A DNA stretch of 64,000 nt from Candidatus Enterousia sp. GTDB lineage: Bacteria; Pseudomonadota; Alphaproteobacteria; Rs-D84. The first letter of the stretch is position 1, and each line of letters starts with the position of its first letter. The stretch is taken from NCBI GenBank assembly GCA_045630455.1, contig JAZQTD010000048.1, positions 1,828 through 65,827 of the forward strand. The letters are read 5' to 3'. Below, one piece after another: positions 42,907 to 58,706 of this stretch. The notes below the pieces were generated by a model. That model saw only the letters and a program-made list of their open reading frames with translations, ran no database searches and was not told where the DNA came from. Both the position numbers and the translations under genes were made by a program.

Positions 42907-42961
42907 TGTGTTATGATTATATCAGAAAAAAGCAATCGAATAAATCAGGAAAAACAATTTT

Positions 42962-43615
42962 ATGAAAAATATCCCAAGAATTTTTATAGGCGACAATATT
43001 AAAGAGGGTATTCAAATACCGTTATCTCGTGAAACAATGCATTATTTAACACGTGTTATGCGTACACGCGAATGCTTGGTCTTTGGTGGTGGCGATGAAT
43101 ATGCTGCGACTGTGTCTGATGATGATAAAAGTTTAATTATTGGCAATAAAACGCCACACACTGACCCGTCTAATGATATTACACTGATGTTTTCGCCGAT
43201 TAAGCATACAGATGATTTAATAAATATGGCGACACAAATGGGTGTTGCACGATTTTTGCCGGTTATAACATCACGCACAGTTGCGCATCATGTAAATTGG
43301 GAACGTATGCGAAAAATAGCAATCGAAAGCGCCGAGCAATCAAATCGTAATTCTGTACCAGAAATTTTAGAACCGGTTAAATTTAACGATTTGGATTTAT
43401 CGGAAATTGTTTTTGCAGACGAACGTGCTGCATATGGCGCAACTACTTCAAACGACTTTGAAACGACAAAAATCCTGATTGGACCCGAAGGTGGTTTTTC
43501 AGATGAGGAATTTTCTGCGCTGGACGTGTCTGGTGCGTGTGGAATTGGATTAGGTAAAACAATATTGCGGGCTGAAACAGCGGCGATTGTTGCGCTGGCT
43601 AAAATCATAAAGTAA
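42962..43615 (+). CDS. rsmE: 16S rRNA (uracil1498-N3)-methyltransferase RsmE family
   Basis: SPOUT C-terminus IGPEGGFSDEE...LGKTILRAETA. Confidence 0.8.
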   Translation: MKNIPRIFIGDNIKEGIQIPLSRETMHYLTRVMRTRECLVFGGGDEYAATVSDDDKSLIIGNKTPHTDPSNDITLMFSPIKHTDDLINMATQMGVARFLPVITSRTVAHHVNWERMRKIAIESAEQSNRNSVPEILEPVKFNDLDLSEIVFADERAAYGATTSNDFETTKILIGPEGGFSDEEFSALDVSGACGIGLGKTILRAETAAIVALAKIIK

Positions 43616-43618
43616 AAA

Positions 43619-44311
43619 ATGACTGTACGAATTGCAAAATTTTTATCAGATTGTTCTGTGGCATCACGGCGTGGGGCGGAAAAATTAATCGCCGATGGCG
43701 CGGTTGCAATTAATGGGAAAATAATAGACAGTCCGGTTAATTTTGTATCTGACCAAGACACGGTGACGGTTAATGGTGTGGTTGTTGGTGCGCAAAAAAC
43801 AGAAATATATGCATTTTATAAACCGATTAATACAATGACAACTGCGCACGACCCAGAAGGGCGTAAAACGATTTATGATGTGTTGCCTAAACAATATCGT
43901 CATCTTAAATATATTGGGCGACTGGATTATAAAACAACAGGATTGTTGTTGTTAACCAACAATGGGGAATTGGCGCGTAAATTAACAATGCCGTCTTCAA
44001 AAATACCACGTGTTTATATTGCTCAGGTTTCTGGTGATACAAAAAATATAGAACGTGCACGTCGCGGAATAATTGTTGATGGAATAAAATATGCGCCGAT
44101 GAAGATAGATGAAATTGAACCGAATATTTTACGTATTGAAATTACAGAAGGGAAAAAGAATGAAATCCGAATTGTAATGCGTGCGTGTGGTTGTCCGGTT
44201 GTAAAATTACACCGCATAAAATACGGAAAAATTGAATTGGGAAAATTAACAGTCGGACAAATTAAAAAGATTTCACAAAAAATAATTGACGAAATAATAA
44301 AAACTCTCTAA
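43619..44311 (+). CDS. rRNA pseudouridine synthase (RsuA/RluB family)
   Basis: S4 domain (IAKFLSDCSVASRRGAEKLI) plus catalytic GRLDYKTTGLLLLTNNG. Confidence 0.8.
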   Translation: MTVRIAKFLSDCSVASRRGAEKLIADGAVAINGKIIDSPVNFVSDQDTVTVNGVVVGAQKTEIYAFYKPINTMTTAHDPEGRKTIYDVLPKQYRHLKYIGRLDYKTTGLLLLTNNGELARKLTMPSSKIPRVYIAQVSGDTKNIERARRGIIVDGIKYAPMKIDEIEPNILRIEITEGKKNEIRIVMRACGCPVVKLHRIKYGKIELGKLTVGQIKKISQKIIDEIIKTL

Positions 44312-44339
44312 TATTCCATTAAACGGAAGGGAGATTTTT

Positions 44340-45371
44340 ATGAAAAAAACACCACTTAAAAACACAAAATCAACAAAAAAAGCTCAAAAAACTAAGCCAG
44401 TAGCCAAAGTTACGGTGAAAAAAGCGTGCACATCTGCATGGTCTTTGTCTATTTATGTATATTGGTTTATTATTTTGTTCTTTATTGCAGCGACTTTTTA
44501 TATCTTGGGTCGCAGCCACGATGCAATTTATACACCATCAACTGCACAAATTAGCGAAGAGCAACTATTGCAGGCTGGCGACTATTATGAAAACGGCAAA
44601 ACAAAGTTGTTGGCAGGTAATATTGATGAAGCAGTGGCAGATTTGACAACTGCAATTGACAGCGGTGCTGCATCGATTGATACATATATCTTGCGTGGTG
44701 AAGCATATATGCAATCTGGCGATTATCGTAACGCAATGGCTGATTTTGATACTGCTTTGGAAAAAGATGCACAAAATGCAGTAGCGTTTTATGATCGTGC
44801 TTTACTGAATATGCGTTTAGAAGATTATAATGCTGCGTTGAACGATATTAATAATGCAATGGCTGCAAATACAACGAATCCAACACCAGTATTACAGTTG
44901 CGTGATTTGTATGCGAAACGTGGTCAATTGAACTTGTGGTTAAAGAACTGGGAAGGTGCAATTGCAGACTATACAAATTCTTTGGCTAGACCAGAGGGTG
45001 TTGTTAATCCATCTGTATATGCAGAACGTGCTGAAGCTTATACTGCAATAAGTGATTATGCAAACGCGATTGATGATTATTCGTCTGCAGTTCGTGTAAT
45101 TTCTGAACAAATTCAGGGGGTACCAACAATGTCATCGCGTGAAATTTTGTCATCAAACGCAATGGGTTACTTTGAAAAGTCTGCAGCATTGAATGTAAAT
45201 CTAGGTAATATGGAAGCTGCACGTGCTGACTTGGAATCTGCACGCACAATTGCCGTGGCGTTGGGTGATACAGAAACTGTTGAACGTTTGGATAAATTGT
45301 TGGCTGATATGACAGTGGTTATAACATCTACAGGACCAGAAGCGCCATCAGAACAAGTTATGGCAGAATAA
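44340..45371 (+). CDS. Membrane-anchored TPR-repeat protein
   Basis: Basic N-terminus, one helix (LSIYVYWFIILFFIAATFYIL), then repeated A..D...A/Y..RG TPR-like units. Confidence 0.65.
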   Translation: MKKTPLKNTKSTKKAQKTKPVAKVTVKKACTSAWSLSIYVYWFIILFFIAATFYILGRSHDAIYTPSTAQISEEQLLQAGDYYENGKTKLLAGNIDEAVADLTTAIDSGAASIDTYILRGEAYMQSGDYRNAMADFDTALEKDAQNAVAFYDRALLNMRLEDYNAALNDINNAMAANTTNPTPVLQLRDLYAKRGQLNLWLKNWEGAIADYTNSLARPEGVVNPSVYAERAEAYTAISDYANAIDDYSSAVRVISEQIQGVPTMSSREILSSNAMGYFEKSAALNVNLGNMEAARADLESARTIAVALGDTETVERLDKLLADMTVVITSTGPEAPSEQVMAE

Positions 45372-45372
45372 C

Positions 45373-45399
45373 AAAAAATCCGGCATTTGCCGGATTTTT
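45373..45399 (+). terminator. Intrinsic terminator (AAAAAATCCGGC-ATTT-GCCGGATTTTT)
   Basis: Starts 2 nt after the TPR gene stop. Confidence 0.65.
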
Positions 45400-45458
45400 A
45401 ATTGCAAAATTTTGTTTCGTTTTGTATGCTAAACCTGATAAACAATTGGGGGTGTATT

Positions 45459-45656
45459 ATGGACGAAAATAAACTAACATTTGAAGAAGCATACAAACAG
45501 TTAATGGAATTGGTCAAAAAAATGGAATCTGGCGAATTGCCATTGGCTGAATCTGTCACTGCTTATGAGCAAGGCGTTAAATTAAAAGCATATTGCGAAC
45601 AATTATTAAAAGAAGCAGAATTAAAAATCGAAACATTAAAAGTTAGCAATCAATAA
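45459..45656 (+). CDS. xseB: Exodeoxyribonuclease VII small subunit
   Basis: MDENKLTFEEAYKQLMELVKKMESGELPLAESVTAYEQGVKL is the XseB pattern. The ATG at 45459 follows GGGGG. ORF track starts at 45402. Confidence 0.8.
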   Translation: MDENKLTFEEAYKQLMELVKKMESGELPLAESVTAYEQGVKLKAYCEQLLKEAELKIETLKVSNQ

Positions 45657-45668
45657 ACGGATTTAATC

Positions 45669-48203
45669 GTGGCTGAAAAAAGCAAATTAACCCCTGTTAT
45701 GCAACAATATGTTGATATGAAGGCGGAAAATCCAGACGCATTATTAATGTTTCGTCTGGGGGATTTTTATGAATCTTTTTTTGAAGATGCAAAAATAATT
45801 AGTGCAAATCTGGGACTGGTTTTAACGGCACGTGGCACAGATGGTGATGGAGAATCAATTCCAATGTGCGGTATTCCGTGGCACGCGGCAGATAATTATT
45901 TTGGTCGTCTGGTGCGCGCTGGTTTTTCGGTCGCATTGGTTGAGCAAATGGAAACCCCGGCCGAGGCCAAATCCCGCGGTCATAAATTCATAGAAAGAAA
46001 AGTTGTTCGTGTTTTAACCCCTGGGACATTAACAGATGAAAATTTATTAATACCAAAAAATTCTAATTTTTTGGTTTCAGTAATGCCGATTGATAATAAT
46101 GAATTTGATATTGCGGGCTGTGATATTTCGACTGGTGAATTTTTTATTGGCAAAACATCTGATATTATTGATGATTTAGTAAGACTTAATCCGGCTGAGG
46201 TTATATACCCCGCATCTGCCGCAGAAAACGATCAGATTATGCAAATTCGTAATATTTTCAAGACAACGGCTGTATTTGAAAAATTATATCATCGCACAGA
46301 TATAGACCAGATTGTATCACGTGTATTCTGCGGTGTTGTGCGTATGGACACGATTTCAACGAATATAGACAATGCGATTTGTTTATTGGCGGGATATTTA
46401 TTTAATACCCAGCGTGATGCCACAATCACATTTCGTGCGCCACATCAATTTAAATCTGGCGCACAGTTGCTGATTGATTCTGCAACATGGAAAAGTCTGG
46501 AAATAGACGCACCAATTAACGATGGTGGTGCATGCTTGATTGATGTTTTAGATAATACCAAGACGGCGGCGGGTGCACGAAAACTGCGCGGATATTTGCG
46601 CGCGCTGTCCGCAGACAGTGACGAGATTCGTTCACGCCAATTGCACATTGCGCACCTGATTACAAATCCAGACGTAATGTTGTCGTTACAGCGAATTTTA
46701 TCAACTGTTCCTGATGTTGGTCGCTGTTTATCAAGACTGCTGTCGGGGCGTGGCACACCACGTGATATGCGAAATATTTCTGAATTTATTATGTCTTTGC
46801 CAAATGCAAAATCTATGTCTGTGCGCTTAGATTCTGGGCTGGGCGCACGTTTTGCGGAAATAAAAACACACGATGAATTGTGTTTAAAATTACAAAATGC
46901 ACTGGCTGACGAGTTGCCAACATTTTTCCGTGATGGCAATGTAATTCGTGATGGTTTTGATATCGCACTGGATAATATGCGCCGCTTAGCCAATGGTGCC
47001 AAAGAAACCATTGCCACCCTGCAATCTGAATATGTGGCAAAAACAGGGATTAACACATTAAAGATAAAATATAACAATATCTTGGGATATTTTATAGAAA
47101 TTCCGTCTGCCCGCGCTGAAATTATGATGAACCCAGAATCTGGTTTTATCCATCGTCAAACGATGGCGGGCAATATGCGCTTTACAACTGCGCGCTTGAT
47201 TGATTTGGATAATGATGTACGCAGTGCGGCTGAAAAATCTGCGGGCATAGAAGCGCAGATTATAAATTCCTTAATCGAAGAAATTCGCAGAGTTGCAGAT
47301 GATTTATTGGCAACGTCTGATTTATTGGCGGATGCAGATGTTTGGTGTTCGCTGGCCTATGTTGCAGATTTATATGATTGGGTTTGCCCAAATGTGACAC
47401 CTGATTGTGCGTTTGATATTATTGGTGGTCGTCACCCAGTGATAGAGTCGGTCTTGCGCGCACGTGGGGATAATTTTGTTAAAAACGATTGTAATCTAAA
47501 TGCGCGTGCGATTGCATTACTGACTGGGCCAAATATGGCGGGTAAATCAACATACCTGCGCCAGAATGCGATAATCGTAGTCTTGGCACATTTGGGTTCT
47601 TTTGTGCCTGCAACCCGTGCGACTATTGGCATCTGTGACCAGTTGTTTAGTCGTGTTGGAGCCTCAGACAATCTGGCGGCTGGTCAGTCTACGTTTATGG
47701 TAGAAATGGCCGAGACTGCAAACATATTAAATCGTGCAACGTCAAAATCTTTTATTATATTTGATGAAATTGGACGTGGTACGGCGACCTATGACGGTAT
47801 GGCAATCGCCCAAGCAGTTCTTGAATTTTTGAACACATTACAGCCACGAACATTATTCGCAACACACTATCACGAATTAACAAGATTGGTGTCTGGTGGC
47901 GAATTGGGCAATGTGTCTTGTCTGACGATTGATGTGCGTGAACACAATAATGAAATTGTCTTTATGCATAAAATAGTAGCGGGTGTTGCAAACCGTTCAT
48001 ATGGTATTCATGTTGCGCGTATGGCGGGAATGCCACAATCTGTTGTTGCGCGCGCAGAAAGTGTTTTGGAATCATTGGAATCAAATACCGCGCCTGTTGC
48101 GTCAAAAGAAACGATTGAAAGCACGCACGTTAAAACGGTTAATCTGGAACCTATGAAGATTCAGTCACCTACGCGTTCACAATTAAACTTGTTTGGGGAA
48201 TAA
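45669..48203 (+). CDS. mutS: DNA mismatch repair protein MutS
   Basis: TPVMQQY N-terminus, Walker A GPNMAGKST, DEIGRGT, THYHEL. GTG start. Confidence 0.9.
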   Translation: MAEKSKLTPVMQQYVDMKAENPDALLMFRLGDFYESFFEDAKIISANLGLVLTARGTDGDGESIPMCGIPWHAADNYFGRLVRAGFSVALVEQMETPAEAKSRGHKFIERKVVRVLTPGTLTDENLLIPKNSNFLVSVMPIDNNEFDIAGCDISTGEFFIGKTSDIIDDLVRLNPAEVIYPASAAENDQIMQIRNIFKTTAVFEKLYHRTDIDQIVSRVFCGVVRMDTISTNIDNAICLLAGYLFNTQRDATITFRAPHQFKSGAQLLIDSATWKSLEIDAPINDGGACLIDVLDNTKTAAGARKLRGYLRALSADSDEIRSRQLHIAHLITNPDVMLSLQRILSTVPDVGRCLSRLLSGRGTPRDMRNISEFIMSLPNAKSMSVRLDSGLGARFAEIKTHDELCLKLQNALADELPTFFRDGNVIRDGFDIALDNMRRLANGAKETIATLQSEYVAKTGINTLKIKYNNILGYFIEIPSARAEIMMNPESGFIHRQTMAGNMRFTTARLIDLDNDVRSAAEKSAGIEAQIINSLIEEIRRVADDLLATSDLLADADVWCSLAYVADLYDWVCPNVTPDCAFDIIGGRHPVIESVLRARGDNFVKNDCNLNARAIALLTGPNMAGKSTYLRQNAIIVVLAHLGSFVPATRATIGICDQLFSRVGASDNLAAGQSTFMVEMAETANILNRATSKSFIIFDEIGRGTATYDGMAIAQAVLEFLNTLQPRTLFATHYHELTRLVSGGELGNVSCLTIDVREHNNEIVFMHKIVAGVANRSYGIHVARMAGMPQSVVARAESVLESLESNTAPVASKETIESTHVKTVNLEPMKIQSPTRSQLNLFGE

Positions 48204-49077
48204 ATTGGCAGATGGATTTATAATCTTGGACAAAGACAGTGGAATGTTTTCAAGAACAGCGGGTGGCAAGATTGCGCGTATGTTTGAAACTAAAAAGTTC
48301 GGACATATCGGCACACTGGACCCAATGGCAACGGGTGTTTTGCCAATTGCAATTGGTAATGCGACAAAGATGATACCGTTTATCGAAGATATAAATTCTA
48401 ATGAAAAAGAATATTTGTTTTCATGCCAGTTTGGATTTGAAACAGACACATTGGATATAACAGGACATGAAATCGCCCGTGATAATATTACGCCAACTGT
48501 TGACATGGTGCAATCTGTACTGCCAAATTTGATTGGTAAAATTATGCAAACGCCGCCAATTTATTCGGCGGTGCACGTTGATGGTGTGCGCGCCTATGAT
48601 GCGGCGCGCCGTGGTCGCGATATTGAAATTCCGCCCCGCGAAATAGAGATTTTTGAACTAGAATTTACTGGGATTGTTGATAATTCTTGGCAGTTTCGTG
48701 TGCGTTGCAGTCGTGGTACATACGTGCGTTCTATTGCGCGCGATATTGCTAAAATGTGTGGGTGTTTGGCAACGGTTGATATGATACGCCGGACGCAAAC
48801 CAATGGATTTACTATAAAAAATGCAGTAAAACTTGATTTTTTAGAAAATCTGGTTAATAATGGTGGCGATTTCAAGAAATACTTGGAACCAATTGATTCA
48901 GGACTGGGGGACATTCCGGTTATGAATCTTGACGGCACGGCGGCTAACTTTTACAAGAATGGCGGCTTTGTCGAGACGGCGGGTGCGGACGGTCTGCGCC
49001 GTGTATATTCTGGTGACGTGTTCATTGGAATTGGTACGGTTGTGGACGGAAAATTGCGCCCAAAAAGAACAATATAA
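48193..49077 (+). CDS. truB: tRNA pseudouridine(55) synthase
   Basis: GHIGTLDPMATGVLPIAIG catalytic motif. Overlaps the mutS end by 11 nt. Confidence 0.9.
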   Translation: MGNKLADGFIILDKDSGMFSRTAGGKIARMFETKKFGHIGTLDPMATGVLPIAIGNATKMIPFIEDINSNEKEYLFSCQFGFETDTLDITGHEIARDNITPTVDMVQSVLPNLIGKIMQTPPIYSAVHVDGVRAYDAARRGRDIEIPPREIEIFELEFTGIVDNSWQFRVRCSRGTYVRSIARDIAKMCGCLATVDMIRRTQTNGFTIKNAVKLDFLENLVNNGGDFKKYLEPIDSGLGDIPVMNLDGTAANFYKNGGFVETAGADGLRRVYSGDVFIGIGTVVDGKLRPKRTI

Positions 49078-49096
49078 AAAACAAAAGGAAAAAATA

Positions 49097-49369
49097 ATGT
49101 CCGTTACAAAAGAACAAATTGCCGAAGTAGTGGCAAATTTCAAAACGACTGAAAAAGACAATGGTGGTTCTGCTGCGGCTCAGGTTGCAGGTTTGACATT
49201 GCGTATTCGCAATTTGACAGAACACATGAAGGCTAATCACAAAGACAAACACTCTAAACGTGGTCTGTTGTTGATGGTTAACCGTCGTAAAAAATTATTG
49301 GCATACATCAAGAAAAACGATGTTGCTGAATACGAAGAACTGATTAAGAAATTGGGTTTGCGTAAATAA
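49097..49369 (+). CDS. rpsO: 30S ribosomal protein S15
   Basis: MSVTKEQIAEVV...GSAAAQVAGLTLRIRNLTEHMKANHKDKHSKRGLL is the uS15 pattern. The ORF track's upstream extension from 48929 is spurious. Confidence 0.9.
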   Translation: MSVTKEQIAEVVANFKTTEKDNGGSAAAQVAGLTLRIRNLTEHMKANHKDKHSKRGLLLMVNRRKKLLAYIKKNDVAEYEELIKKLGLRK

Positions 49370-49370
49370 T

Positions 49371-49399
49371 AAAAAACACCGGCAATCGCCGGTGTTTTT
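49371..49399. terminator. Bidirectional intrinsic terminator (AAAAAACACCGGC-AATC-GCCGGTGTTTTT)
   Basis: Between convergent rpsO and nth. Overlaps the nth stop. Confidence 0.7.
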
Positions 49400-50036
49400 A
49401 TTTGTTTTTCGGACACCATTTTGCAACGGGGCACATGTCGCACTTTGGGCGCAGTGCCGTGCACACATAGCGACCGTGCAGAACCATTACGTGATTTACA
49501 ATACTGTGATATTTTTTCGGAATCTTTTTTAGTAATTTTGCCTCTACTTTTTCAGGTGTGTTGTCGGTGTCATCCACCCAACCATATCGATGTGCATTGC
49601 GGAAAACGTGCGTATCGACACCGATGTTTGGTGCACCCCACAAAACATTACAAACAACATTTGCGGTCTTTTGTCCAATTCCCGGCAACTTCATCAGTTC
49701 ATCACGATTGTGGTATTTTGTTGGAAAAGTATCGGTCATATTTTCTGCCACCAACCGTTCAGCCAACGCAATTATGTTCTTTGCTTTGTTGTTAAAAAAC
49801 GAAATAACCTTGATGTGTTCTTTTAATCCGTCAATCCCCAGTTCCAGCATCTTTTGTGGTGTTGGCGCGATGCGGAATAATTCTGGTGTGACTTCGTTAA
49901 CTTTTTTATCAGTCGCTTGGGCTGATAAAATCACCGCCACCGCAAAGTTAAATTCATTTGTGTGATACAGTTCCGACCGAATTGTCATATCAACGGTCGG
50001 TGGAACATTTTCAAAATATCTTTGCGGTGTCAGCAT
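49398..50036 (-). CDS. nth: Endonuclease III
   Basis: HhH LPGIGQKTANVV, catalytic VDTHVFR, 4Fe-4S ligands C..LRPKCDMCPVAKWC. Confidence 0.9.
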   Translation of the reverse strand: MLTPQRYFENVPPTVDMTIRSELYHTNEFNFAVAVILSAQATDKKVNEVTPELFRIAPTPQKMLELGIDGLKEHIKVISFFNNKAKNIIALAERLVAENMTDTFPTKYHNRDELMKLPGIGQKTANVVCNVLWGAPNIGVDTHVFRNAHRYGWVDDTDNTPEKVEAKLLKKIPKKYHSIVNHVMVLHGRYVCTALRPKCDMCPVAKWCPKNK

Positions 50037-50248
50037 TATTTCTGCTTTTGTAACAGTTCCAGAATTTTTGCGTTTTGCCCTTTTACAATCCGCAAATTGT
50101 CCAGTATTGTATATTCTTCACGTGTTAAATTTAACTTACGTGAACATAACGATTCTCTTTTGCAAAGACCGTTTGAACGAAAATCAGGACATTGACAACC
50201 ATAATCATTTTCTGGATAAAAAAATTCTTTACAATATTTTTCTGCCAT
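50036..50248 (-). CDS. Small cysteine-rich protein (PDGRC-motif family)
   Basis: 70 aa: C-x11-C-Q-C-PDFRSNGL-C-x5-C, then TREEYTILDNL...LELLQKQK. Overlaps the nth start by 1 nt. Confidence 0.6.
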   Translation of the reverse strand: MAEKYCKEFFYPENDYGCQCPDFRSNGLCKRESLCSRKLNLTREEYTILDNLRIVKGQNAKILELLQKQK

Positions 50249-50259
50249 TTTTTAATTCC

Positions 50260-50673
50260 TTATTTCTGATTTTCTTTATCACGATGAATAAATTGCAGCA
50301 AGCGCGTGGCTAATTCCATTTCTTCGCTTAAATACATTTCGTGTGGACAGTCCTCACGTTCCTGTTTATATTCGTGTGCTTTGCATTTACCGCCCGGCGA
50401 TTGATATGGACAATGTTTATCAATCTGACCACAGAAAAGATTATTTGGAAAAGATTGTTCTTTTTTACAGGTTGTTGAAATCACACGCGCACCATTATTG
50501 TGGATATGATACATATACTTAATCAGAAATCCCATATCTGGACTTGTCACCACCACAGAGTCCGGACAGCGTTCAACCTCGCCCAAACGTTCGGTTAATT
50601 TACAACGTCCGTCTGGCATTTTTTCCGGACATTTCGTTGTGATATTGCCGCAGTACAAATATGGGTATTTCAT
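50260..50673 (-). CDS. Cysteine-rich protein with two PDGRC-type repeats
   Basis: 137 aa. Repeat 1 is C-x6-C-PEKMPDGR-C-x11-C. Repeat 2 is C-x11-C-x6-C-PYQSPGGK-C-x11-C. The tail ends KENQK. 11-nt spacers on both sides. Confidence 0.6.
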   Translation of the reverse strand: MKYPYLYCGNITTKCPEKMPDGRCKLTERLGEVERCPDSVVVTSPDMGFLIKYMYHIHNNGARVISTTCKKEQSFPNNLFCGQIDKHCPYQSPGGKCKAHEYKQEREDCPHEMYLSEEMELATRLLQFIHRDKENQK

Positions 50674-50684
50674 GATTTATCCTT

Positions 50685-53600
50685 TTATGCTTTTTTGACC
50701 GAGATTGCTAATGCGTATCCTTCGATATCCGTGGTGTATTCACCGTCACCATTTACCATTTCAACAACCAGTGCCTCACTCATAATACGCTTTTTATGGG
50801 CATCAATTGCCATTGCCAATGCCGGGTCTGCATTATATGTCAAAACGATACGGTCAGATACGTCCAACCCCGCTGTTTTACGTGTGTCTTGGATAAAGCG
50901 AAGCGCATCGTTTGCCAACCCTTCGGCAACCAGGTCTGCGGTTACATCTGTATCCAACACAACCACAGCGGTGTTATCTGGCAGCGCCGCCCCAGTTACA
51001 CCTTCTTTTACAGTCAATCTGTTTTCGAATTCGTCGGCGTTTAATTCAAATCCAGCTACGACCAATTTGTCATCTTTGACTTCAAAGTCGCCACGTTTAA
51101 CGGCTGGGATAATTTCTTTTAATGCCCCGCCCAGACGTGCGCCGATTTTTGGTGTAATCAGATACACAAAAGAATCTGCTACGTCTGCAATGTTATCAAC
51201 GAACACAACTTGTTTTACATTTAGTTCGTCGCGGATAATATCGGCGTATGCGCTTAAATCTGTGCCTGCAACCGTCATAGATGCCAATGGTAAACGATTG
51301 CGCAATTTGTATTGTTCGCGTAACTGTTTTCCAGTTGATACGATTGCCTGTACACGGCGCATATCATCTACGATTTTGTTGTCGAATTCAGCGACTGTTG
51401 GGAAATCTGTTAAATGCACAGATTCTTCACCTGTTAATGAGCGATAGATATATTCAGACACAAACGGTGCAAACGGTGCAAGTACGCGACAAAGTTTTAC
51501 CAGTACTGTGTACAGCGTATCAAATGCGTCTTGTTCTTCGTCCCAGAAACGTGCGCGTCCACGACGAATGTACCAGTTGTTCAAGATATCCAAGAATCTT
51601 ACAAATTCTTTGATTGCGACATCTGGCTTGTATTCGGTTAGTGAATTTTTAACCACATCAACTAACACATTTAATTCCGCCAAGATATATTTATCCAATG
51701 GATTTGTTGGATTTGCCATTTCTTGTGCAGTCACATTTCCTGCGTTTGCATACAGTGTAAAGAAGTGATACGCGTTCCACAGTGGTGTTTGAATTGTTTT
51801 TGTTGATTCAACGAATACTTTACCTTCTTTATCAACTGGAACTGGTTCTGCCTTCATAAAGTTAGAGCCCAATATATACAAACGAACGGCATCTGCGCCA
51901 TATTGTTCAATCTGTTCACTTGGGTCAACAAAGTTGCGCAATGATTTAGAGAACTTCTTTTTATTTTCATCAACAACCATACCGTTTGCAGACACAGCCA
52001 TAAATGCAGGCTTGTCAAACAATGCAGTTGCCAACACCATCAGCGCATAGAACCAACCACGTGTTTGGTCTTGACCTTCGATAATATAATCGGCTGGGAA
52101 TGTCGCTGCAAATTTATCTGCATTTTCGAACGGATAGTGCAACGATGCCCACGGCATAGAACCACTTTCAACCCAGCAATCCAAAACGTCTGGGATACGT
52201 GTCCAACCGTCTTTGGTTAATTTATCCAATGTTGGACGGTGCAGATCGTCAACCGTTACGCCAAAGAATTCTTCCAGTTCTGCGATAGAGCCAAATATTT
52301 TATATTCACCATCCCGTTCCCAGATTGGCAATGGCATACCCCAGAAACGATTTCTGGAAATTGACCACGGACGTGCGTTTTCAATCCACATACGGAAACG
52401 TTCGCCAGCAGATGTCCAATTAACCAGATTGTTATTCGCAATCAGTTTGTCTTTGATTTTTGGCACATCGATATACCAAGAATCGGTCGCGCGCTGAATT
52501 AACTTTTCTTTGCTGCGGTCGCCGAATGGATAACTGTGCTTGTACTGTTCTTTTTTGACCAGTTTACCATTTGTTTTCAGCCAATCTAAAATAGCCGGTG
52601 TTGCCGCAAAGATATTTTGACCTGCAAAATCCACAACTGTTTCATCAAAGTTGCCGTACGTATCAACATTTAATAAAACTGGGAATTTTGGATCAATTGC
52701 CTTGGCGGCCCAAAAGTCTTCGGCTCCGTACGCAGGTGCAATATGAACGATACCCGTACCATCAGAATCAGAAACATAGTCTGCTGGGATAACCTGGAAT
52801 AATAATTCAGACTGGCCCGCATAGTATGGGAACAATGGTGTATAGTGCATACCCGCCAATTCAGAGCCCTTTACACGAGCGATTTCAGTTGTGTTGGCGA
52901 ATTGCTTTTCGTATGCCTTCAGACGACTTTCTGCAACAACGTAAACTGCGCCATCTGTATCTTGCATACGCAGATATGTCATATTTGGGTTAACGGCCAA
53001 CGCACTGTTTGCAGGCAATGTCCACGGTGTAGTTGTCCACGCAATTACACGATCACCGTTTTCCAATTCGAACCAAACAGTCACTGCATCATCAATAATT
53101 TCGCGATAATCACTGGAAGCTTCGGAATTAGAAATAACCGTACCGTTTACCCAGTCGTATGGATTAACACTGTAATCTTTGTACAACAGACCCTTTTCAT
53201 ACAAAGACTTTAATGTCCATAGCATGGATTCCATATAGTTTTTATCCATTGTTTTGTATCCGTATCCGTCACCGATATCAACCCAGCGACCCATACGTGT
53301 AATAAATGTGTTCCATTCATTTGTATATGTCATAACATCAGTGCGGCACATATCACAGAACGCAGCAATGCCATCGTTTGCAACGATATCCTTGGCAGAT
53401 TTACCGACTTTTTTCTCGACCGAGTTTTCCGCAGGTAACCCGTGGCAATCCCAGCCCAGTTCACGATTAACATATCGACCCGACATCGTCTGGAAACGTG
53501 ACACCATATCTTTGACAACCGAAACCCCCAAGTGTCCCCAGTGTGGTTTACCATTGGCAAAGGGCGGACCGTCAAAGAATGAAAATGGACGACCAGACTT

Positions 53601-53708
53601 TGTTTTGTCTAGTGATTTATGAAAAGTGTTATTTTCGCGCCAGTATGCTAATACAGCCTGTTCCATTTCTGGAAAGTTTGCGCGTGGGTCTGTTTTTTTG
53701 TATGACAT
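50685..53708 (-). CDS. ileS: Isoleucine--tRNA ligase (long, type 2 / eukaryote-like form)
   Basis: GPPFANGKPHWGH (HIGH region), KFSKS. About 1007 aa from the ATG at 53708 (after GGAG). No C-terminal CxxC zinc motifs. Confidence 0.9.
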   Translation of the reverse strand: MSYKKTDPRANFPEMEQAVLAYWRENNTFHKSLDKTKSGRPFSFFDGPPFANGKPHWGHLGVSVVKDMVSRFQTMSGRYVNRELGWDCHGLPAENSVEKKVGKSAKDIVANDGIAAFCDMCRTDVMTYTNEWNTFITRMGRWVDIGDGYGYKTMDKNYMESMLWTLKSLYEKGLLYKDYSVNPYDWVNGTVISNSEASSDYREIIDDAVTVWFELENGDRVIAWTTTPWTLPANSALAVNPNMTYLRMQDTDGAVYVVAESRLKAYEKQFANTTEIARVKGSELAGMHYTPLFPYYAGQSELLFQVIPADYVSDSDGTGIVHIAPAYGAEDFWAAKAIDPKFPVLLNVDTYGNFDETVVDFAGQNIFAATPAILDWLKTNGKLVKKEQYKHSYPFGDRSKEKLIQRATDSWYIDVPKIKDKLIANNNLVNWTSAGERFRMWIENARPWSISRNRFWGMPLPIWERDGEYKIFGSIAELEEFFGVTVDDLHRPTLDKLTKDGWTRIPDVLDCWVESGSMPWASLHYPFENADKFAATFPADYIIEGQDQTRGWFYALMVLATALFDKPAFMAVSANGMVVDENKKKFSKSLRNFVDPSEQIEQYGADAVRLYILGSNFMKAEPVPVDKEGKVFVESTKTIQTPLWNAYHFFTLYANAGNVTAQEMANPTNPLDKYILAELNVLVDVVKNSLTEYKPDVAIKEFVRFLDILNNWYIRRGRARFWDEEQDAFDTLYTVLVKLCRVLAPFAPFVSEYIYRSLTGEESVHLTDFPTVAEFDNKIVDDMRRVQAIVSTGKQLREQYKLRNRLPLASMTVAGTDLSAYADIIRDELNVKQVVFVDNIADVADSFVYLITPKIGARLGGALKEIIPAVKRGDFEVKDDKLVVAGFELNADEFENRLTVKEGVTGAALPDNTAVVVLDTDVTADLVAEGLANDALRFIQDTRKTAGLDVSDRIVLTYNADPALAMAIDAHKKRIMSEALVVEMVNGDGEYTTDIEGYALAISVKKA

Positions 53709-53732
53709 ACTTACTACTCCGTTTTTATTATT

Positions 53733-53754
53733 AAAAAAAAGGCGCATATGCGCC
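53733..53754 (-). terminator. Intrinsic terminator between tRNA-Thr and ileS
   Basis: The minus strand reads GGCGCATATGCGCC followed by TTTTTTTT. Confidence 0.6.
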
Positions 53755-53831
53755 CCAGCCACCGCCAAAGCGCGTGCGACTATTATCTAATAATAATTAT
53801 TGTTGTCTGTTTCATTTTTTTCTTTTATTTC

Positions 53832-53907
53832 TGGTGCCGGTGATAGGACTTGAACCTACGACCCCCTCATTACGAATGAGATGCTCTACCAGCTGAGCTA
53901 CACCGGC
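53832..53907 (-). tRNA. tRNA-Thr (CGU anticodon)
   Basis: Reverse complement GCCGGTGTAGCTCAGCTGGTAGAGCATCTCATTCGTAATGAGGGGGTCGTAGGTTCAAGTCCTATCACCGGCACCA. Canonical cloverleaf with anticodon loop TTCGTAA. Confidence 0.9.
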
Positions 53908-53957
53908 GACGCAAAAAACTATAAAACATATTTGCGACAAATTCCAGTATAATTTTT

Positions 53958-55601
53958 TTAAGATTTAATCTTGCGCAGTACGACCATAATGCCCGCTGGG
54001 GTCATACCTGGGATTCTGGACAAGTCTGCAATATTTTCAGGGCGCACCGCATTTAATTTTTCAATCAATTCATTGGTCAGCCCTGGTAAATTATCATACT
54101 TAAAACCGCTTGGGATTTTCATATCTGCATCACGTTTGTATGCCGCAATTTCGCGTTCGTTTCGTGCAATATATCCCGCATAGAATTTATCGTTTTCGGC
54201 AAAAATATCTTTTTTAAGATTATATAATTTTTCGTATTTTTCTTGGGATATTAATCCTAATTTAACACCCATTTGCCCCAGACGTGCAATTGCATTATCT
54301 GCACGTAAATTCAGTCTGTATTCTGCACGCGAAGTAAACATACGATACGGTTCATCAACCCCAAGTGTTGTAATATCATCAATTAAAACACCAATCATCG
54401 CGTTTGTTCGGTCTAATTCTAAGTACTCAATCCCCAATGCGTATGCGGCGGCATTTGCACCCGCAACCAAGCCTTGGGCGGCGGCTTCTTCGTATCCACT
54501 TGTTCCGTTTATTTGTCCCGCAAAGAACAAGTGTGGATTGTCTTTGCTTTGTAATTTATCGTTTAATGCGCGTGCATCAATTGCATCATATTCAATCGCA
54601 TATCCATATCGTGCAATACGTGCGTTTTCCAGCCCCGGTATCGTGCGAATCCATTTGTCTTGCATATCAGATCCAAAACTGGTTGATATTCCGTTTGGAT
54701 ATATAATATCGCTGTCATAGCCTTCGGGTTCCAAAAATACGTGATGTGATTTGTGTTCTGGGAAACGCATAACTTTATCTTCCAGACTTGGGCAATATCG
54801 CGGACCTGTACCAACAATGTCGCCATTATACATTGGCGCATTTTTTATGTTTTCACGAATTACGTTATGTGTTTCTTCGTTCGTATGCGTGATAAAACAT
54901 GCACAGTGATAATTATTTTTTTCGTCCCCTAAATCAAACCAGTCGTGTGGCGTGTCGGGCTCTTGTACCTCGCACACGTCCCAGTTAATAGAATCACGAT
55001 AAATACGAGCGGGTGTACCTGTTTTCAGACGTAAAATCTTGAATCCCGCACCACGCAGAATATCAGAAATATTTTTATCTGCATCTTGATATGTGCCATC
55101 GTCTTGCAGGCGACCAGACGAAATCTTTTCATCACCACGTGTGACAACGCCATGCAAAAAAGTACCCGTTGTTAAAACAATAGATTTTGCTGCATACGCA
55201 TTGTTTACAGTACTTAGTGCAATATCTAAATCAACAACTGGTTCGTATTTTATACTCAGATTTTTATATTCAGACAAAATATTTATGATTGCATTGTGGT
55301 ATAAATCACGGTCGATTTGTGCGCGCAGTGCCTGGGTTGCCGCGCCATGTGTCGCATTCAGTGTGCGCCAATGAATGCCAGACTGGTCGGCTGCACGTCC
55401 CATAACACCGCCCAGCGCAGACATTTCTGCCACCATTTGTGATTTGCCGGGTCCACCAATACTTGGGTTACACGACAACGCGCCTAAATCACTTTTTGCC
55501 TGGGTCAGCAGTAATGTTTTAGCCCCACGGCGTGCAGATGCCGCCGCGGCTTCTACTCCGGCGTGTCCCCCACCAATAACAATCACATCATATTTTTTCA
55601 T
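53958..55601 (-). CDS. mnmG: tRNA uridine 5-carboxymethylaminomethyl modification enzyme MnmG (short form)
   Basis: FAD motif YDVIVIGGGHAGVEAA, CNPSIGG, RLKTGTPAR, GPRYCPSLEDK, AGQINGTSGYEEAAAQG. 547 aa. Confidence 0.85.
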   Translation of the reverse strand: MKKYDVIVIGGGHAGVEAAAASARRGAKTLLLTQAKSDLGALSCNPSIGGPGKSQMVAEMSALGGVMGRAADQSGIHWRTLNATHGAATQALRAQIDRDLYHNAIINILSEYKNLSIKYEPVVDLDIALSTVNNAYAAKSIVLTTGTFLHGVVTRGDEKISSGRLQDDGTYQDADKNISDILRGAGFKILRLKTGTPARIYRDSINWDVCEVQEPDTPHDWFDLGDEKNNYHCACFITHTNEETHNVIRENIKNAPMYNGDIVGTGPRYCPSLEDKVMRFPEHKSHHVFLEPEGYDSDIIYPNGISTSFGSDMQDKWIRTIPGLENARIARYGYAIEYDAIDARALNDKLQSKDNPHLFFAGQINGTSGYEEAAAQGLVAGANAAAYALGIEYLELDRTNAMIGVLIDDITTLGVDEPYRMFTSRAEYRLNLRADNAIARLGQMGVKLGLISQEKYEKLYNLKKDIFAENDKFYAGYIARNEREIAAYKRDADMKIPSGFKYDNLPGLTNELIEKLNAVRPENIADLSRIPGMTPAGIMVVLRKIKS

Positions 55602-56329
55602 TAAAAGCGTCCCATTCCACCATTTACATGCAGTGTCTGACCGTTGATATAAGCCGCTTCATCAGATGCCAAGAATACGCATGCGTTCGCAATATCTTCT
55701 GGTTCGCCAAAGCGACCCGCTGGGATTTGTGCCAAATAGTTTTTCTTTAATTCTTCTGGCAAAACATCGGTCATTGGTGTCTTGATAAAGCCTGGTGCGA
55801 TTGTGTTGGCGGTGATGCCGCGACTGCCAACTTCGGCCGCGATAGATTTTGTCATTGCAATCATACCACCCTTACTTGCGGCATAGTTTGCCTGACCTGG
55901 GCCACCAATTGCGCCAATAATAGATGCCATATTAATAATACGACCAAAACGATTCTTCATCATCGGCATAATTGCCGCACGACACATTTTGAAACAAGAG
56001 CGCAGGTTTGTGTTAATAACTTCGTCAAATTGTTCGTCACTCATACGCATTAACAGCGTGTCACGCGTAATCCCTGCATTATTAATCAAAATATCGATTT
56101 TACCCGCTGCTTCGATTGTGTTCATAACCAGTTCAACTGCGCCACCATCACTTGCCAGATCGCATGGAATTTTGATATATTCATCGCCAAATTCAGCATC
56201 CATTTTCGCAGTATTACGACCAGAAACAACAACTGTTGCGCCTGCTTCTTTCATTTTTCTTGCGATTGCGCCACCGATTCCACCGGTTGCGCCTGTGATA
56301 AGTGCTACTTTGCCTGTTAAGTCAAACAT
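55601..56329 (-). CDS. fabG: 3-oxoacyl-ACP reductase
   Basis: SDR motifs TGATGGIG, NNAG and YAASK. Next to fabD. Confidence 0.85.
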   Translation of the reverse strand: MFDLTGKVALITGATGGIGGAIARKMKEAGATVVVSGRNTAKMDAEFGDEYIKIPCDLASDGGAVELVMNTIEAAGKIDILINNAGITRDTLLMRMSDEQFDEVINTNLRSCFKMCRAAIMPMMKNRFGRIINMASIIGAIGGPGQANYAASKGGMIAMTKSIAAEVGSRGITANTIAPGFIKTPMTDVLPEELKKNYLAQIPAGRFGEPEDIANACVFLASDEAAYINGQTLHVNGGMGRF

Positions 56330-56330
56330 T

Positions 56331-57206
56331 TTATATCTCCAATTTCTTTGCGGTTATTTTATCTGTGATGCGGGAACACAGGCCGGTTAACACATTGCCT
56401 GGGCCCACTTCGATTTGTTCTGTGATACCGAGTTCAGCCATATTCAATACACTTTCACGCCAGCGCACACCGTGTGTCATTTGATATACCAACGCTTCTT
56501 TAATTTCATTGATATCTGTTGTTGGTTGACATGTCTTGTTCAAAATAATTGGCACGATTGGCTGTTTAAAGTCAACAGTTTCCAGTGCATCACGCATTAC
56601 ATCTGCCGAGGACGATTGCGCCCGACAATGAACCGGTACAGACAATGCCAACGGCATTGCGCGTTTTGCGCCATGTTCTTTTGCGACGTCTATTATTTTT
56701 TCAACGGCACCGCGCAGACCAGAGATTACAACCTGACCCGGACAGTTATCATTTGCAACATCACAATCTGTACATGCGCAAATTTCACGCACCGCGTCAA
56801 TATCCAACCCCAGAATTACAGCGGTTAAACCATCGCCGACTGGAACCGCGCTTTGCATTGCGTTTCCACGCACACGCAACAGTTTTGCCGCATCTCCAAC
56901 CGACAAAGCACCAGCTGCACATAACGCCGTATATTCACCCAGTGAATGTCCCGCAACGTATTCTGGTATTTTTGCATTTGCTGCACGCATCATTGCAATA
57001 GAAGTTGCCATAATTGCAGGCTGAACATTTGCAGTTAATGTTAGTGTATCAGCCGGTCCATTAAAAATAACGTCTGATAATTTTTCGCCCAGTGCTGCGT
57101 CCACTTCATCAAAGACCGCGCGTGCTGCCGCATTGGTTTCATAAAGTTCTTTGCCCATACCAACGCTTTGCGCACCTTGACCTGGGAAAACAAAAATAGA
57201 TGACAT
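56331..57206 (-). CDS. fabD: Malonyl CoA-ACP transacylase
   Basis: FPGQGAQ N-terminus and GHSLGEY active site. Confidence 0.85.
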   Translation of the reverse strand: MSSIFVFPGQGAQSVGMGKELYETNAAARAVFDEVDAALGEKLSDVIFNGPADTLTLTANVQPAIMATSIAMMRAANAKIPEYVAGHSLGEYTALCAAGALSVGDAAKLLRVRGNAMQSAVPVGDGLTAVILGLDIDAVREICACTDCDVANDNCPGQVVISGLRGAVEKIIDVAKEHGAKRAMPLALSVPVHCRAQSSSADVMRDALETVDFKQPIVPIILNKTCQPTTDINEIKEALVYQMTHGVRWRESVLNMAELGITEQIEVGPGNVLTGLCSRITDKITAKKLEI

Positions 57207-57343
57207 ATCGTGCCTTTTTTTATATTTAATACACCCATTATAGACTGGATTTTTCCTAAGCGCAAATATAATGATTTGTTGACTTTTTTCAGGGATAAAT
57301 TTGTTGAAAAAAAATTTGTCTGTATTAAACTATGCGACTGTAG

Positions 57344-57778: not shown

Positions 57779-57784
57779 AGTCCT

Positions 57785-58694: not shown

Positions 58695-58706
58695 TTTTTT
58701 ACCTTC

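What the first reader, a model, noticed from the sequence alone, without database searches (positions are those of the whole stretch)
50036..50673. Undescribed family of small cysteine-rich proteins with a C-[PK]-x4-5-[DNG]-G-[RKL]-C core
Aligned by eye: 7892..8134 gives C-KKKYMPEQ-C-KNDF-C-KDMLPDGR-C-PKYIWLH-C. 50036..50248 gives C-KEFFYPENDYG-C-Q-C-PDFRSNGL-C-KRESL-C. The N-half of 50260..50673 gives C-GNITTK-C-PEKMPDGR-C-KLTERLGEVER-C. Its C-half gives C-KKEQSFPNNLF-C-GQIDKH-C-PYQSPGGK-C-KAHEYKQERED-C. Three of these four repeats (all but the N-half of 50260..50673) are followed by an S/T-x-EE[YM] helix and a tail ending in QK (KEHQK, LQKQK, KENQK). The 144-aa protein at 57344..57778 ends with C-I-C-GIEN-C-PQRIIDGK-C-LFD-C. 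That makes at least four genes and five domain copies in 64 kb, one of them an internal duplication, with no signal peptides. The spacing suggests a metal-binding (zinc-ribbon or Fe-S-like) mini-domain. I cannot assign it to a known family.
Basis: seen in the sequence. Interest (0 to 1): 0.7.

Follow-up and report, generated by a model that had tools for sequence, protein, structure and literature searches.

The report
Orphan cysteine-rich mini-protein family in Enterousia
Three genes in this window encode a real, previously undescribed family of small four-cysteine proteins found only in one group of tiny-genome gut bacteria; what they do is unknown, but they probably bind a metal.

Summary
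The ORFs and motifs are real. Three genes (7892..8134, 50036..50248, 50260..50673, all on the minus strand) carry four copies of one ~65-aa module: [Y/F]-C1, then C2-x8-C3 with G two residues before C3, then C4, a short strand and a long helix usually ending in QK.

Profile comparisons link the copies (E 2e-12 to 5e-6). dN/dS is 0.08-0.3, and 40+ homologue clusters keep the four cysteines.

A profile search of 1.84 billion representatives found only 12 true clusters, all from Ca. Enterousia-type Alphaproteobacteria MAGs. Pfam, NCBIfam, PHROGs, PADLOC, PDB sequences and Foldseek (model pLDDT 85) gave no match.

New findings:
- Every related genome carries 1-3 family genes packed between ileS and nth.
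- The single-module genes are 97-100% identical in DNA between species whose flanking genes are 65-82% identical. They are also absent from some genomes or present as different alleles.
- Some relatives carry C-x6-C-x2-C-x5-C, the endonuclease III [4Fe-4S] spacing.

Most likely reading: cytoplasmic Cys4 metal-binding adaptor proteins that pair through the helix. Whether the metal is Zn or Fe-S is open, and function is inferred, not shown.

The parts
50260..50673 (-). Double-module gene ('D', 137 aa). It is two tandem copies of the Cys4-plus-helix module and is the core member of the family at this locus.
   Evidence: ORF. 20 homologues at 57-85% identity with the same length; C8/15/24/36 and C81/88/97/109 are invariant. 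dN/dS 0.08-0.21. AF2 pLDDT 63, with each half predicted as strand, Cys loops, strand, helix.
50488..50673 (-). N-terminal module of D (residues 1-62): Y-C-x6-C-P-x5-D-G-R-C-x11-C, then a strand, then a helix.
   Evidence: hhalign N-half vs C-half E=2e-12, and N-half vs 80-aa family E=5e-6. Alignments A3-A5.
50263..50457 (-). C-terminal module of D (residues 73-137): [Y/F]-C-x6-C-P-x5-G-G-K-C-x11-C, then a strand, then a helix ending LLQF[IV]HRD..QK.
50036..50248 (-). Single-module gene ('S70', 70 aa): C6...C20-x8-C29-x5-C35, then a long helix ending LLQKQK. Its stop codon overlaps the nth start (TAATG).
   Evidence: ORF. Orthologues lie at the same position in L005, L008, L010, L011 and L022, with a different allele in L004/L006. 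AF2 pLDDT 85. It is 97-98% identical in DNA to L005/L010/L011, while flanking genes are 65-82% identical. Sequence context.
7892..8134 (-). Single-module gene ('S80', 80 aa): C10-x8-C19-x4-C24-x8-C33-x7-C41, then a long helix ending KEHQK.
   Evidence: ORF. Homologues at 74-91% identity. Module HMM E=2e-20. The block containing the gene is 81-100% identical in DNA to L015/L016, with unrelated flanks.
8163..8190 (-). Near-consensus sigma-70-type promoter of S80 (TTGACA, 16 nt, TG-n-TATTAT; 11 of 12 matches). It is conserved with the gene in L015/L016.
   Evidence: consensus match only.
7861..7879 (-). Intrinsic-terminator-like hairpin directly after S80. With the promoter, it makes S80 a stand-alone transcription unit.
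50685..53768 (-). ileS (type-2 isoleucyl-tRNA synthetase), the upstream gene of the operon. An 11-nt gap containing an AAGGA ribosome-binding site separates it from D.
   Evidence: Synteny is conserved in all loci.
49398..50036 (-). nth (endonuclease III, with C-x6-C-x2-C-x5-C at its C-terminus), the downstream gene of the operon. It is translationally coupled to S70.
49372..49399 (.). Bidirectional terminator-like hairpin (12-bp stem) that closes the ileS-D-S-nth unit.
57344..57778 (+). The 144-aa protein (the likely start is the ATG at 57371). It belongs to a separate lineage-specific ~140-aa family whose C-terminus carries G-C-x-C-x4-C-x8-C, that is C-x6-C-x8-C. A relationship to the module family is unproven.
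   Evidence: Orthologues and paralogues next to fabD in L001-L004 and L013, including three tandem copies in L001. hhalign vs modules E~0.006, probability 6%. Not found by the module HMM. No Pfam or PDB hit.

Best explanation
These are real genes of a lineage-restricted family of small cytoplasmic proteins. So far the family is seen only in Ca. Enterousia-type Alphaproteobacteria MAGs, which are gut bacteria with genomes under about 1 Mb.

The family is built from one ~65-aa module. Four cysteines come together from a short N-terminal strand and an intervening loop: [Y/F]-C1, C2-x8-C3 with a Gly two residues before C3, and C4. A second strand and a long amphipathic, partly coiled-coil helix follow, usually ending in ...QK.

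Inferred mechanism (not shown):
- Each module folds around one Cys4 metal centre. Structural Zn(II) is the default assumption; Fe-S is the main alternative.
- Modules pair through the helix. Pairing is within one chain in the double-module protein D, and between chains in the single-module proteins S70 and S80.
- The result is a small two-site adaptor or regulator rather than an enzyme.

D is a core gene, co-transcribed and translationally coupled within ileS-D-(S)-nth, so it is probably expressed constitutively. The single-module paralogues are accessory cassettes that are gained, lost and swapped between species.
For: Shown:
- The genes are real. D has dN/dS 0.08-0.21 and S70 0.24-0.32, and lengths are conserved.
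- The modules are homologous.
- C2, C3, C4 and the Gly two residues before C3 are invariant, and C1 is nearly so, across 30 diverse modules.
- The one sequence that lacks two cysteines (P0026) has a compensated frameshift in A-runs.
- There is no signal peptide.
- The AF2 model of S70 is confident (pLDDT 85, pTM 0.68): strand 3-6, Cys-bearing loops, strand 38-41, helix 43-69. D repeats this layout twice.
- Longer relatives extend the helix with obvious heptad repeats, for example LKKEKAQLQKQIEELQ.
- The operon has 11-nt gaps with ribosome-binding sites, a TAATG overlap, and its strongest terminator-like hairpin (12-bp stem) after nth.
- The ileS-nth interval holds 1-3 family genes in each of the 19 loci from 14 or more distinct genomes.
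- The family is restricted: 12 true clusters among 1.84 billion representatives.

Inferred: metal binding, pairing through the helix, and the adaptor role.
Against: - No metal, partner or phenotype has been observed.
- Zn sites normally use CxxC knuckles, and the window members have none.
- The AF2 model of the double-module protein is only moderately confident (pLDDT 63, pTM 0.42), so module-module packing is not established.
- Helix amphipathicity is modest; only 1 of 4 helices beats 95% of shuffles.
- The cross-species near-identity of S70 and S80 is not explained by a housekeeping adaptor role.
Confidence: 0.45

Rival explanations
1. The module binds an iron-sulfur cluster, most likely [4Fe-4S], rather than zinc. 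It would then act as a small redox- or cluster-dependent factor. That role would be analogous to WhiB-like proteins, or linked functionally to the [4Fe-4S] glycosylase EndoIII encoded next door.
For: - Several single-module relatives carry exactly C-x6-C-x2-C-x5-C: L013 6460..6663 and L020 3766..3981 and 4490..4702.
- That is the spacing of the EndoIII/MutY [4Fe-4S] ligands (PMC11138216). The adjacent nth has it in every locus.
- The family-wide C-x6-C-x8-C equals this motif with the third Cys replaced (2+1+5=8) and a downstream C4 added.
- These relatives are firmly in the family (hhalign E=2.6e-13).
- From general knowledge, C-x2-C-x5-C is also the [4Fe-4S] signature of WhiB-like proteins and AddB/Cas4 nucleases.
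- There are no CxxC zinc knuckles, and C2 and C4 are often followed by Pro.
- A SufBD-like gene shows the lineage assembles Fe-S clusters.
- Gene order is always ...module gene(s)-nth, with translational coupling.
Against: - The window's own members lack the middle Cys.
- There is no detectable sequence similarity to the nth cluster loop beyond the cysteines (hhalign E=0.33, probability 0.2%).
- There is no Pfam WhiB hit.
- Matching one spacing among many known Cys motifs could be chance; my rough estimate is a few percent after allowing for multiple motifs.
- nth keeps its own complete cluster site, so it needs no ligands supplied in trans.
Confidence: 0.25
2. The single-module genes (S70, S80) are primarily mobile or selectively swept accessory cassettes. 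They could be addiction, immunity or specificity-type small genes, spread among co-resident Enterousia species by recombination. Their biology would then be conflict-related rather than housekeeping. This reading is compatible with either metal hypothesis.
For: - S70 is 97-98% identical in DNA to L005/L010/L011, while ileS, D and nth in the same loci are 65-82% identical.
- The closest genome overall (L004, 88% in D) carries a 61%-identical allele. That allele is 100% identical to L006's over 235 nt, although L004 and L006 are 78-87% identical in the flanks.
- There are at least three allele classes and a null state. Position is also variable (upstream of D in L007 and L020) and so is copy number, from 1 to 3 genes.
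- S80 with its promoter is 81-100% identical to L015/L016 in a completely different genomic context.
- Other S70-family clusters span 66-99% protein identity, so the near-identity is not a universal constraint.
Against: - No transposase, integrase, flanking repeats or toxin partner was seen.
- No copies were found on viral contigs.
- The rpsO region is also 90-100% identical between some of these genomes, so mosaic recombination may be general in the genus rather than specific to these genes.
- Only about 20 loci were examined.
Confidence: 0.2
3. The proteins are exported, for example through the type IV secretion system of this lineage, with the conserved basic ...QK C-terminus as the signal. 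The cysteines would then form disulfides outside the cell, as in cysteine-rich effectors.
For: - A VirB4/CagE homologue lies in the window at 23210..25630.
- The ...QK terminus is highly specific to these cysteine-rich proteins. It also occurs on some paralogues of the unrelated-looking 140-aa cysteine-rich family: L001 19001..19420 and L013 7459..7875.
- The lineage is proposed to depend on other organisms (PMC12306168).
Against: - D is embedded in, and translationally coupled with, a housekeeping operon (ileS-nth).
- The tail carries only +1 to +2 net charge and has no Arg-rich motif.
- The gut habitat is anoxic, which disfavours disulfide-stabilised effectors.
- The even number and fixed spacing of cysteines around a predicted compact core fit a metal site at least as well.
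Confidence: 0.06
4. The ORFs are chance reading frames, or the shared motif is a coincidence of composition.
For: The proteins are short, and the pairwise BLASTP hits between D and the S proteins are weak.
Against: - Orthologues of the same length are conserved in many independent assemblies, with dN/dS well below 1.
- Profile-profile E-values reach 2e-12.
- Ribosome-binding sites, a promoter and a terminator are present.
- The strict motif occurs nowhere else in the six frames.
Confidence: 0.01

Closest known systems
Iron-sulfur cluster loop of endonuclease III / MutY (Cys-X6-Cys-X2-Cys-X5-Cys, [4Fe-4S])
   Same: The C-x6-C spacing is identical, and the span from C2 to C3 is the same length (8 = 2+1+5). 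Several relatives (L013, L020) have the exact four-Cys motif. The genes always sit directly upstream of nth.
   Different: The window members lack the third Cys and use a Cys further downstream. The cluster of cysteines is N-terminal and followed by a long helix, rather than at the C-terminal end of a glycosylase fold. There is no sequence similarity beyond the cysteines (hhalign E=0.33). Cluster binding is untested.
WhiB-like (Wbl) proteins of Actinobacteria
   Same: Resemblance in kind only. Both are 70-140-aa cytoplasmic proteins with four conserved cysteines, a helical remainder and a basic C-terminus. Both have several paralogues per genome and are confined to one lineage. Some relatives have C-x2-C-x5-C.
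   Different: No Pfam Whib match. By inspection there is no G[V/I]WGG turn. The predicted strand-loop-strand-helix layout is not a helical bundle. The host phylum is different.
Small zinc-finger / zinc-ribbon proteins (rubredoxin-like CPxCG knuckles; DksA/TraR C4 fingers with a coiled coil)
   Same: They are small, have four cysteines, often have 'C-P', and in DksA/TraR combine with a coiled-coil helix. They probably act by binding partners rather than as enzymes.
   Different: The window members have no CxxC pairs; spacings are 6-14, 8 and 5-11. There are no Pfam, PDB or Foldseek hits.
Eukaryotic CCCH zinc finger (C-x8-C-x5-C-x3-H)
   Same: S70 has C-x8-C-x5-C. One family member gives a weak zf-CCCH hit (E=0.021).
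   Different: The +4 position after the third Cys is Leu, not His. The C3-C4 spacing varies from 5 to 14 across the family. The fourth conserved ligand candidate lies upstream (C1). The hit is below threshold and comes from 1 of 30 members.

Membership tests
New family defined here (Enterousia Cys4-helix module) | [Y/F]-C1, C2-x8-C3 with Gly at C3-2, C4, then a strand and a long helix; detected by the module HMM built from A5. | tested here: met
   D (both halves), S70 and S80 score E=3e-49, 3e-20 and 2e-20. The invariant columns are C2, G, C3 and C4, and C1 is conserved in at least 90% of sequences.
New family defined here (Enterousia Cys4-helix module) | Membership of the 144-aa protein at 57344..57778. 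| tested here: inconclusive
   It shares C-x6-C-x8-C and G-K-C. However, the module HMM does not find it at E<=0.01, and hhalign gives E~0.006 with probability 6% over 24 columns. It lacks the conserved C4 and the helix.
Zinc ribbon / rubredoxin-like knuckle proteins | Two CxxC (CPxCG-type) knuckles. | tested here: not met
   None of the three window proteins contains CxxC. No Pfam zinc-ribbon hit.
EndoIII/MutY-type [4Fe-4S] cluster loop | Cys-X6-Cys-X2-Cys-X5-Cys. | tested here: not met
   The window members have 6-8-11 (D), 11-1-8-5 (S70) and 8-4-8-7 (S80). The exact motif is present only in relatives L013 6460 and L020 3766 and 4490.
EndoIII/MutY-type [4Fe-4S] cluster loop | Sequence homology to the glycosylase C-terminal loop. 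| tested here: not met
   hhalign of the 6-2-5 subfamily vs an nth alignment gives E=0.33, probability 0.2%.
EndoIII/MutY-type [4Fe-4S] cluster loop | Binds a [4Fe-4S] cluster. | not testable with these tools
   Needs anaerobic purification, UV-vis/EPR and Fe/S analysis.
WhiB-like (Pfam PF02467) | Match to the Whib profile, with C-x(n)-C-x2-C-x5-C and the G[V/I]WGG turn. | tested here: not met
   No Pfam hit at E<=10 for the window proteins or at E<=1 for the 30 family modules. The motif and the turn are absent from the window sequences by inspection.
CCCH zinc finger (Pfam PF00642) | C-x7-8-C-x4-5-C-x3-H, scoring above the Pfam threshold. | tested here: not met
   Only 1 of 30 members hits, at E=0.021. 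There is no His at +4 in S70.
Phage or defence-system proteins | Match to a PHROG or PADLOC family, or presence on viral contigs. | tested here: not met
   No hit better than E=0.058. No relatives found in IMG/VR.

The most novel reading that the evidence does not exclude
The module is a new kind of Fe-S mini-protein, derived from or convergent with the C-x6-C-x2-C-x5-C cluster loop. In tiny-genome gut symbionts it would act as a redox- or cluster-sensing partner of the DNA-repair or gene-expression machinery encoded around it (EndoIII, IleRS). The single-module paralogues would be interchangeable specificity cassettes traded between species under balancing or sweep selection.
Probability: 0.12. 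Interest if true: 0.75.

Novelty: new variant of a known kind. Interest (0 to 1): 0.5.

Why it matters
Genomes under 1 Mb keep few dispensable genes. Even so, every Enterousia-type genome sampled keeps at least one of these proteins wedged between two housekeeping genes, and many carry several paralogues. That argues for an important, lineage-specific function that no existing annotation captures.

If the module binds metal, it adds a new Cys4 fold class without CxxC knuckles. If it binds Fe-S, it would be a compact relative-in-kind of the glycosylase cluster loop or of Wbl proteins, outside the Actinobacteria.

The near-identical S cassettes in otherwise diverged species are a clean, small test case for gene-specific sweeps or recombination among uncultured gut bacteria.

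Without experiments this remains an orphan family of unknown function, and metagenomes contain many of those.

Tried and rejected
1. Known-family assignment. All of these were negative or gave only single, sub-threshold hits:
- Pfam and NCBIfam on the four proteins.
- Pfam on 30 modules.
- PHROGs and PADLOC.
- PDB sequence searches with the A3 and A1 profiles and with the 144-aa protein.

2. Fold assignment. Foldseek of the D model (pLDDT 63) against PDB, and of the S70 model (pLDDT 85) against PDB and BFVD, found nothing with E<1. No AlphaFold DB library was available.

3. Phage origin. Three scans of viral contigs found no relatives. One attempt with the A5 alignment failed because it has no conserved stretch of 7-10 columns.

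4. JGI metagenome scans. S80 gave nothing and D gave only 2 short contigs.

5. Trans-complementation of a cluster-less EndoIII. Rejected, because all 18 nth genes in the loci keep C-x6-C-x2-C-x5-C.

6. The idea that C10 and C19 of S80 are dispensable because P0026 lacks them. Rejected, because P0026 differs by two 1-nt indels in A-runs, a compensated frameshift or an assembly error.

7. A missing zinc domain of IleRS supplied in trans. The IleRS here is an ordinary type-2 enzyme with a DUF5915 C-terminus, as in many bacteria that have no such partner. This idea has no support.

8. CDGSH, DUF1289 and twin-Cx9C resemblances recalled from memory. The motif order and spacing do not fit, and there are no Pfam hits.

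9. Cysteine geometry in the AF2 models could not be inspected, because coordinates are not exposed.
Full report
**1. What is there**

- 7892..8134 (-), 80 aa
- 50036..50248 (-), 70 aa
- 50260..50673 (-), 137 aa
- 57344..57778 (+), 144 aa

A six-frame regex scan of the 64 kb finds the strict motif C-[PKG]-x4-6-[DNG]-G-[RKL]-C five times, and only in these ORFs.

The window is about 40% G+C with strong strand-linked GC skew. It carries ordinary bacterial housekeeping genes.

Related loci come from MAGs labelled 'Candidatus Enterousia sp.' or 'Alphaproteobacteria bacterium', from ruminant and other guts. Enterousia belongs to the uncultured order Rs-D84, whose genomes are mostly under 1 Mb and lack the TCA cycle and respiration (PMC12306168; taxonomy).

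**2. Are they real genes and one family?**

The 137-aa protein (D) is a real gene:
- It has 20 homologue clusters at 57-85% identity, nearly all of 137-139 aa.
- In the alignment, C8, C15, C24, C36 and C81, C88, C97, C109 are invariant. That is C-x6-C-x8-C-x11-C twice.
- Against seven orthologues, dN/dS is 0.08-0.21.

The modules are related to each other:

| Comparison | Method | E-value |
|---|---|---|
| N-half vs C-half of D | hhalign | 2e-12 |
| 70-aa vs 80-aa family | hhalign | 3e-7 |
| N-half of D vs 80-aa family | hhalign | 5e-6 |
| 70-aa vs 80-aa | BLASTP | 3e-6 |

An alignment of 30 diverse modules (A5) has invariant C2, a Gly two residues before C3, C3 and C4. C1 is conserved in at least 90% of sequences and is usually preceded by Y or F.

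The only sequence lacking C1 is P0026. It differs from its relatives by two single-base indels in A-runs, so its odd N-terminus is a compensated frameshift or an assembly error, not evidence that those cysteines are dispensable.

A module HMM run over all 2,801 ORFs of at least 40 aa in the window and 23 loci finds exactly three genes in the window: D with two domains, S70 and S80.

**3. The 144-aa protein**

This protein has its own orthologues and paralogues next to fabD, with three tandem copies in L001.

Its C-x6-C-x8-C spacing and its G-[KR]-C echo the module. However, hhalign gives only E~0.006 with probability 6% over 24 columns, and the module HMM misses it. I treat it as a separate lineage-specific cysteine-rich family whose relationship to the modules is unproven.

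**4. Is the family known?**

No.
- Pfam, NCBIfam, PHROGs and PADLOC give nothing consistent.
- PDB sequence profiles give nothing.
- A profile of 17 modules searched with HMMER against 1.84 billion cluster representatives returned 14 proteins at E<=1e-3. Twelve are genuine single-module (~70 aa) or double-module (135-161 aa) proteins, and two are repeat artefacts.
- A word-indexed profile search of 5.8 billion proteins returned 41 clusters. All are unnamed or 'hypothetical', and all named sources are Alphaproteobacteria MAGs.
- AlphaFold2 with the diverse alignment gives a confident S70 model: pLDDT 85, pTM 0.68, with strand 3-6, Cys-bearing loops, strand 38-41 and helix 43-69.
- Foldseek finds no match to that model in PDB or BFVD.
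- The D model is weaker (pLDDT 63) but repeats the same layout twice.

**5. Genomic anatomy**

In the window the order on the minus strand is:
- ileS, then an 11-nt gap with AAGGA
- D, then an 11-nt gap with AGGAA
- S70, whose stop overlaps the next start (TAATG)
- nth, followed by a strong bidirectional terminator at 49372..49399

The ileS-nth interval holds family genes in every locus examined:

| Arrangement between ileS and nth | Loci |
|---|---|
| S only | L017, L019 |
| D only | L001-3, L009, L012, L014 |
| D+S | window, L004-6, L008, L010-11, L013, L022 |
| S+D | L007 |
| S+D+S | L020/21 |

S80 is a stand-alone unit. It has a near-consensus promoter at 8190..8163 and a terminator at 7879..7861.

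**6. Unexpected: cassette behaviour of the single-module genes**

S70 stands out from its flanks:

| Segment | DNA identity, window vs L005/L010/L011 |
|---|---|
| S70 | 97-98% (dS 0.02-0.08) |
| D | 65-73% (dS about 2) |
| ileS 3' end | 72-77% |
| nth | 81-82% |

- The genome closest overall (L004, 88% in D) carries a different 76-aa allele that is 61% identical.
- That allele is 100% identical over 235 nt to L006's allele, although L004 and L006 are only 78-87% identical in the flanks.
- L008 has a third allele.
- L001, L007, L009, L012 and L014 have none at this position.

S80 and its promoter are 81-100% identical to L015/L016, where the flanking DNA is unrelated.

Other S70-family clusters range from 66% to 99% protein identity, so the near-identity is not a universal constraint.

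The simplest reading is recent exchange or sweeps of these cassettes among species. One caveat is that the rpsO region is also 90-100% identical between some of these genomes, so mosaic recombination may be widespread in the genus. I found no mobile-element genes, and no copies on viral contigs.

**7. A lead on the metal**

Several single-module relatives carry an extra Cys that gives exactly C-x6-C-x2-C-x5-C: L013 6460..6663 and L020 3766..3981 and 4490..4702. They are firmly in the family (E=2.6e-13).

This is the spacing of the [4Fe-4S] ligands of endonuclease III and MutY (PMC11138216). The adjacent nth has it in all 18 copies seen. The family-wide C-x6-C-x8-C equals this motif minus its third Cys.

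Beyond the cysteines there is no similarity to the nth loop (hhalign E=0.33). This is therefore a resemblance, not membership, and the window members do not have the full motif.

**8. Most likely mechanism**

Shown: a real, conserved, cytoplasmic family (no signal peptide) with four invariant cysteines, a predicted compact strand-loop-strand core, and a long helix that becomes an overt coiled coil in longer relatives.

Inferred: each module holds one Cys4 metal centre, modules pair through the helix, and the proteins act as small adaptors or regulators. D would be a tethered pair of modules. D is core and co-expressed with ileS and nth, while the S genes are accessory.

- Zn is the default assumption, because it is the commonest Cys4 ligand in such small domains.
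- Fe-S is a serious rival, given the absence of CxxC, the 6-2-5 variants and the nth linkage.
- Export through the lineage's type IV system (VirB4 homologue at 23210..25630), using the specific ...QK tail, is a minor rival.
- Chance ORFs are excluded.

**9. Verdict**

Corrections:
- Three genes and four modules, not four genes and five modules.
- Two of the listed cysteines are not conserved.
- The N-half of D also has a helix.

The family is a new, very narrowly distributed variant of the small cysteine-rich, presumably metal-binding protein kind. Its function is unknown.

The conserved ileS-nth array and the cross-species cassette identity make it more interesting than a typical orphan. Without biochemistry it remains a moderate-interest finding.

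Noticed in passing
window 50015..50262, compared with L004-L011: The S70 cassette is 97-100% identical in DNA between species whose flanking genes are 65-82% identical. Allele classes are distributed incongruently with the flanks, and some genomes lack the gene.
   Followed up: partly
window 7892..8202, compared with L015/L016 5930..6243: S80 and its promoter are 81-100% identical in DNA in a completely different genomic context. In L015/L016 the gene is followed by a 226-aa protein with a cysteine-rich C-terminus that is absent from the window.
   Followed up: partly
L015 6001..6234 (P0026): The apparent loss of two cysteines in this homologue is caused by two 1-nt indels in A-homopolymers. 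This is a compensated frameshift or an assembly error.
   Followed up: yes
L013 6460..6663; L020 3766..3981 and 4490..4702: These single-module relatives carry exactly C-x6-C-x2-C-x5-C. That is the endonuclease III [4Fe-4S] ligand spacing, and they lie immediately upstream of nth.
   Followed up: partly
window 23210..25630 (-) and 25639..26037 (-): A VirB4/CagE/TrbE homologue (Pfam PF03135, E=1e-13) lies next to a small membrane ORF upstream of it. This suggests a type IV secretion component in this reduced genome.
   Followed up: no
window 58359..58694 (-): A 111-aa ORF with 6 cysteines (C-x6-C-x2-C ... C-x5-C, 'SGKC') lies directly upstream of a CCAPC-motif protein at 57813..58358. It is conserved in L009 (73%), L004 (46%) and L012 (31%). 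It is another unannotated cysteine-rich small protein.
   Followed up: partly
L001 19001..20418; L013 7459..7875: The 144-aa family forms up to three tandem paralogues next to fabD. Some copies also end in ...QKQK or ...RKQK, so the QK tail recurs in a second cysteine-rich family.
   Followed up: partly
window 7579..7860: About 280 bp between the tRNA-Met terminator and the S80 terminator have no gene, no Rfam hit and no homology to L015/L016. Their content is unexplained.
   Followed up: no
window 27765..28445 (+): A short SufBD-like protein (Pfam PF01458, E=1e-6) indicates that the lineage retains a SUF-type Fe-S assembly component.
   Followed up: no
window 1..64000: GC skew is unusually strong (up to ±0.3) and flips with the blocks of gene orientation, at about 9 kb, 37 kb and 50 kb.
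   Followed up: no
window 49145..49377 (rpsO), compared with L004, L005 and L009: The rpsO region is 90-100% identical in DNA to genomes that are 70-80% identical in ileS. This hints at widespread mosaic recombination in the genus.
   Followed up: no
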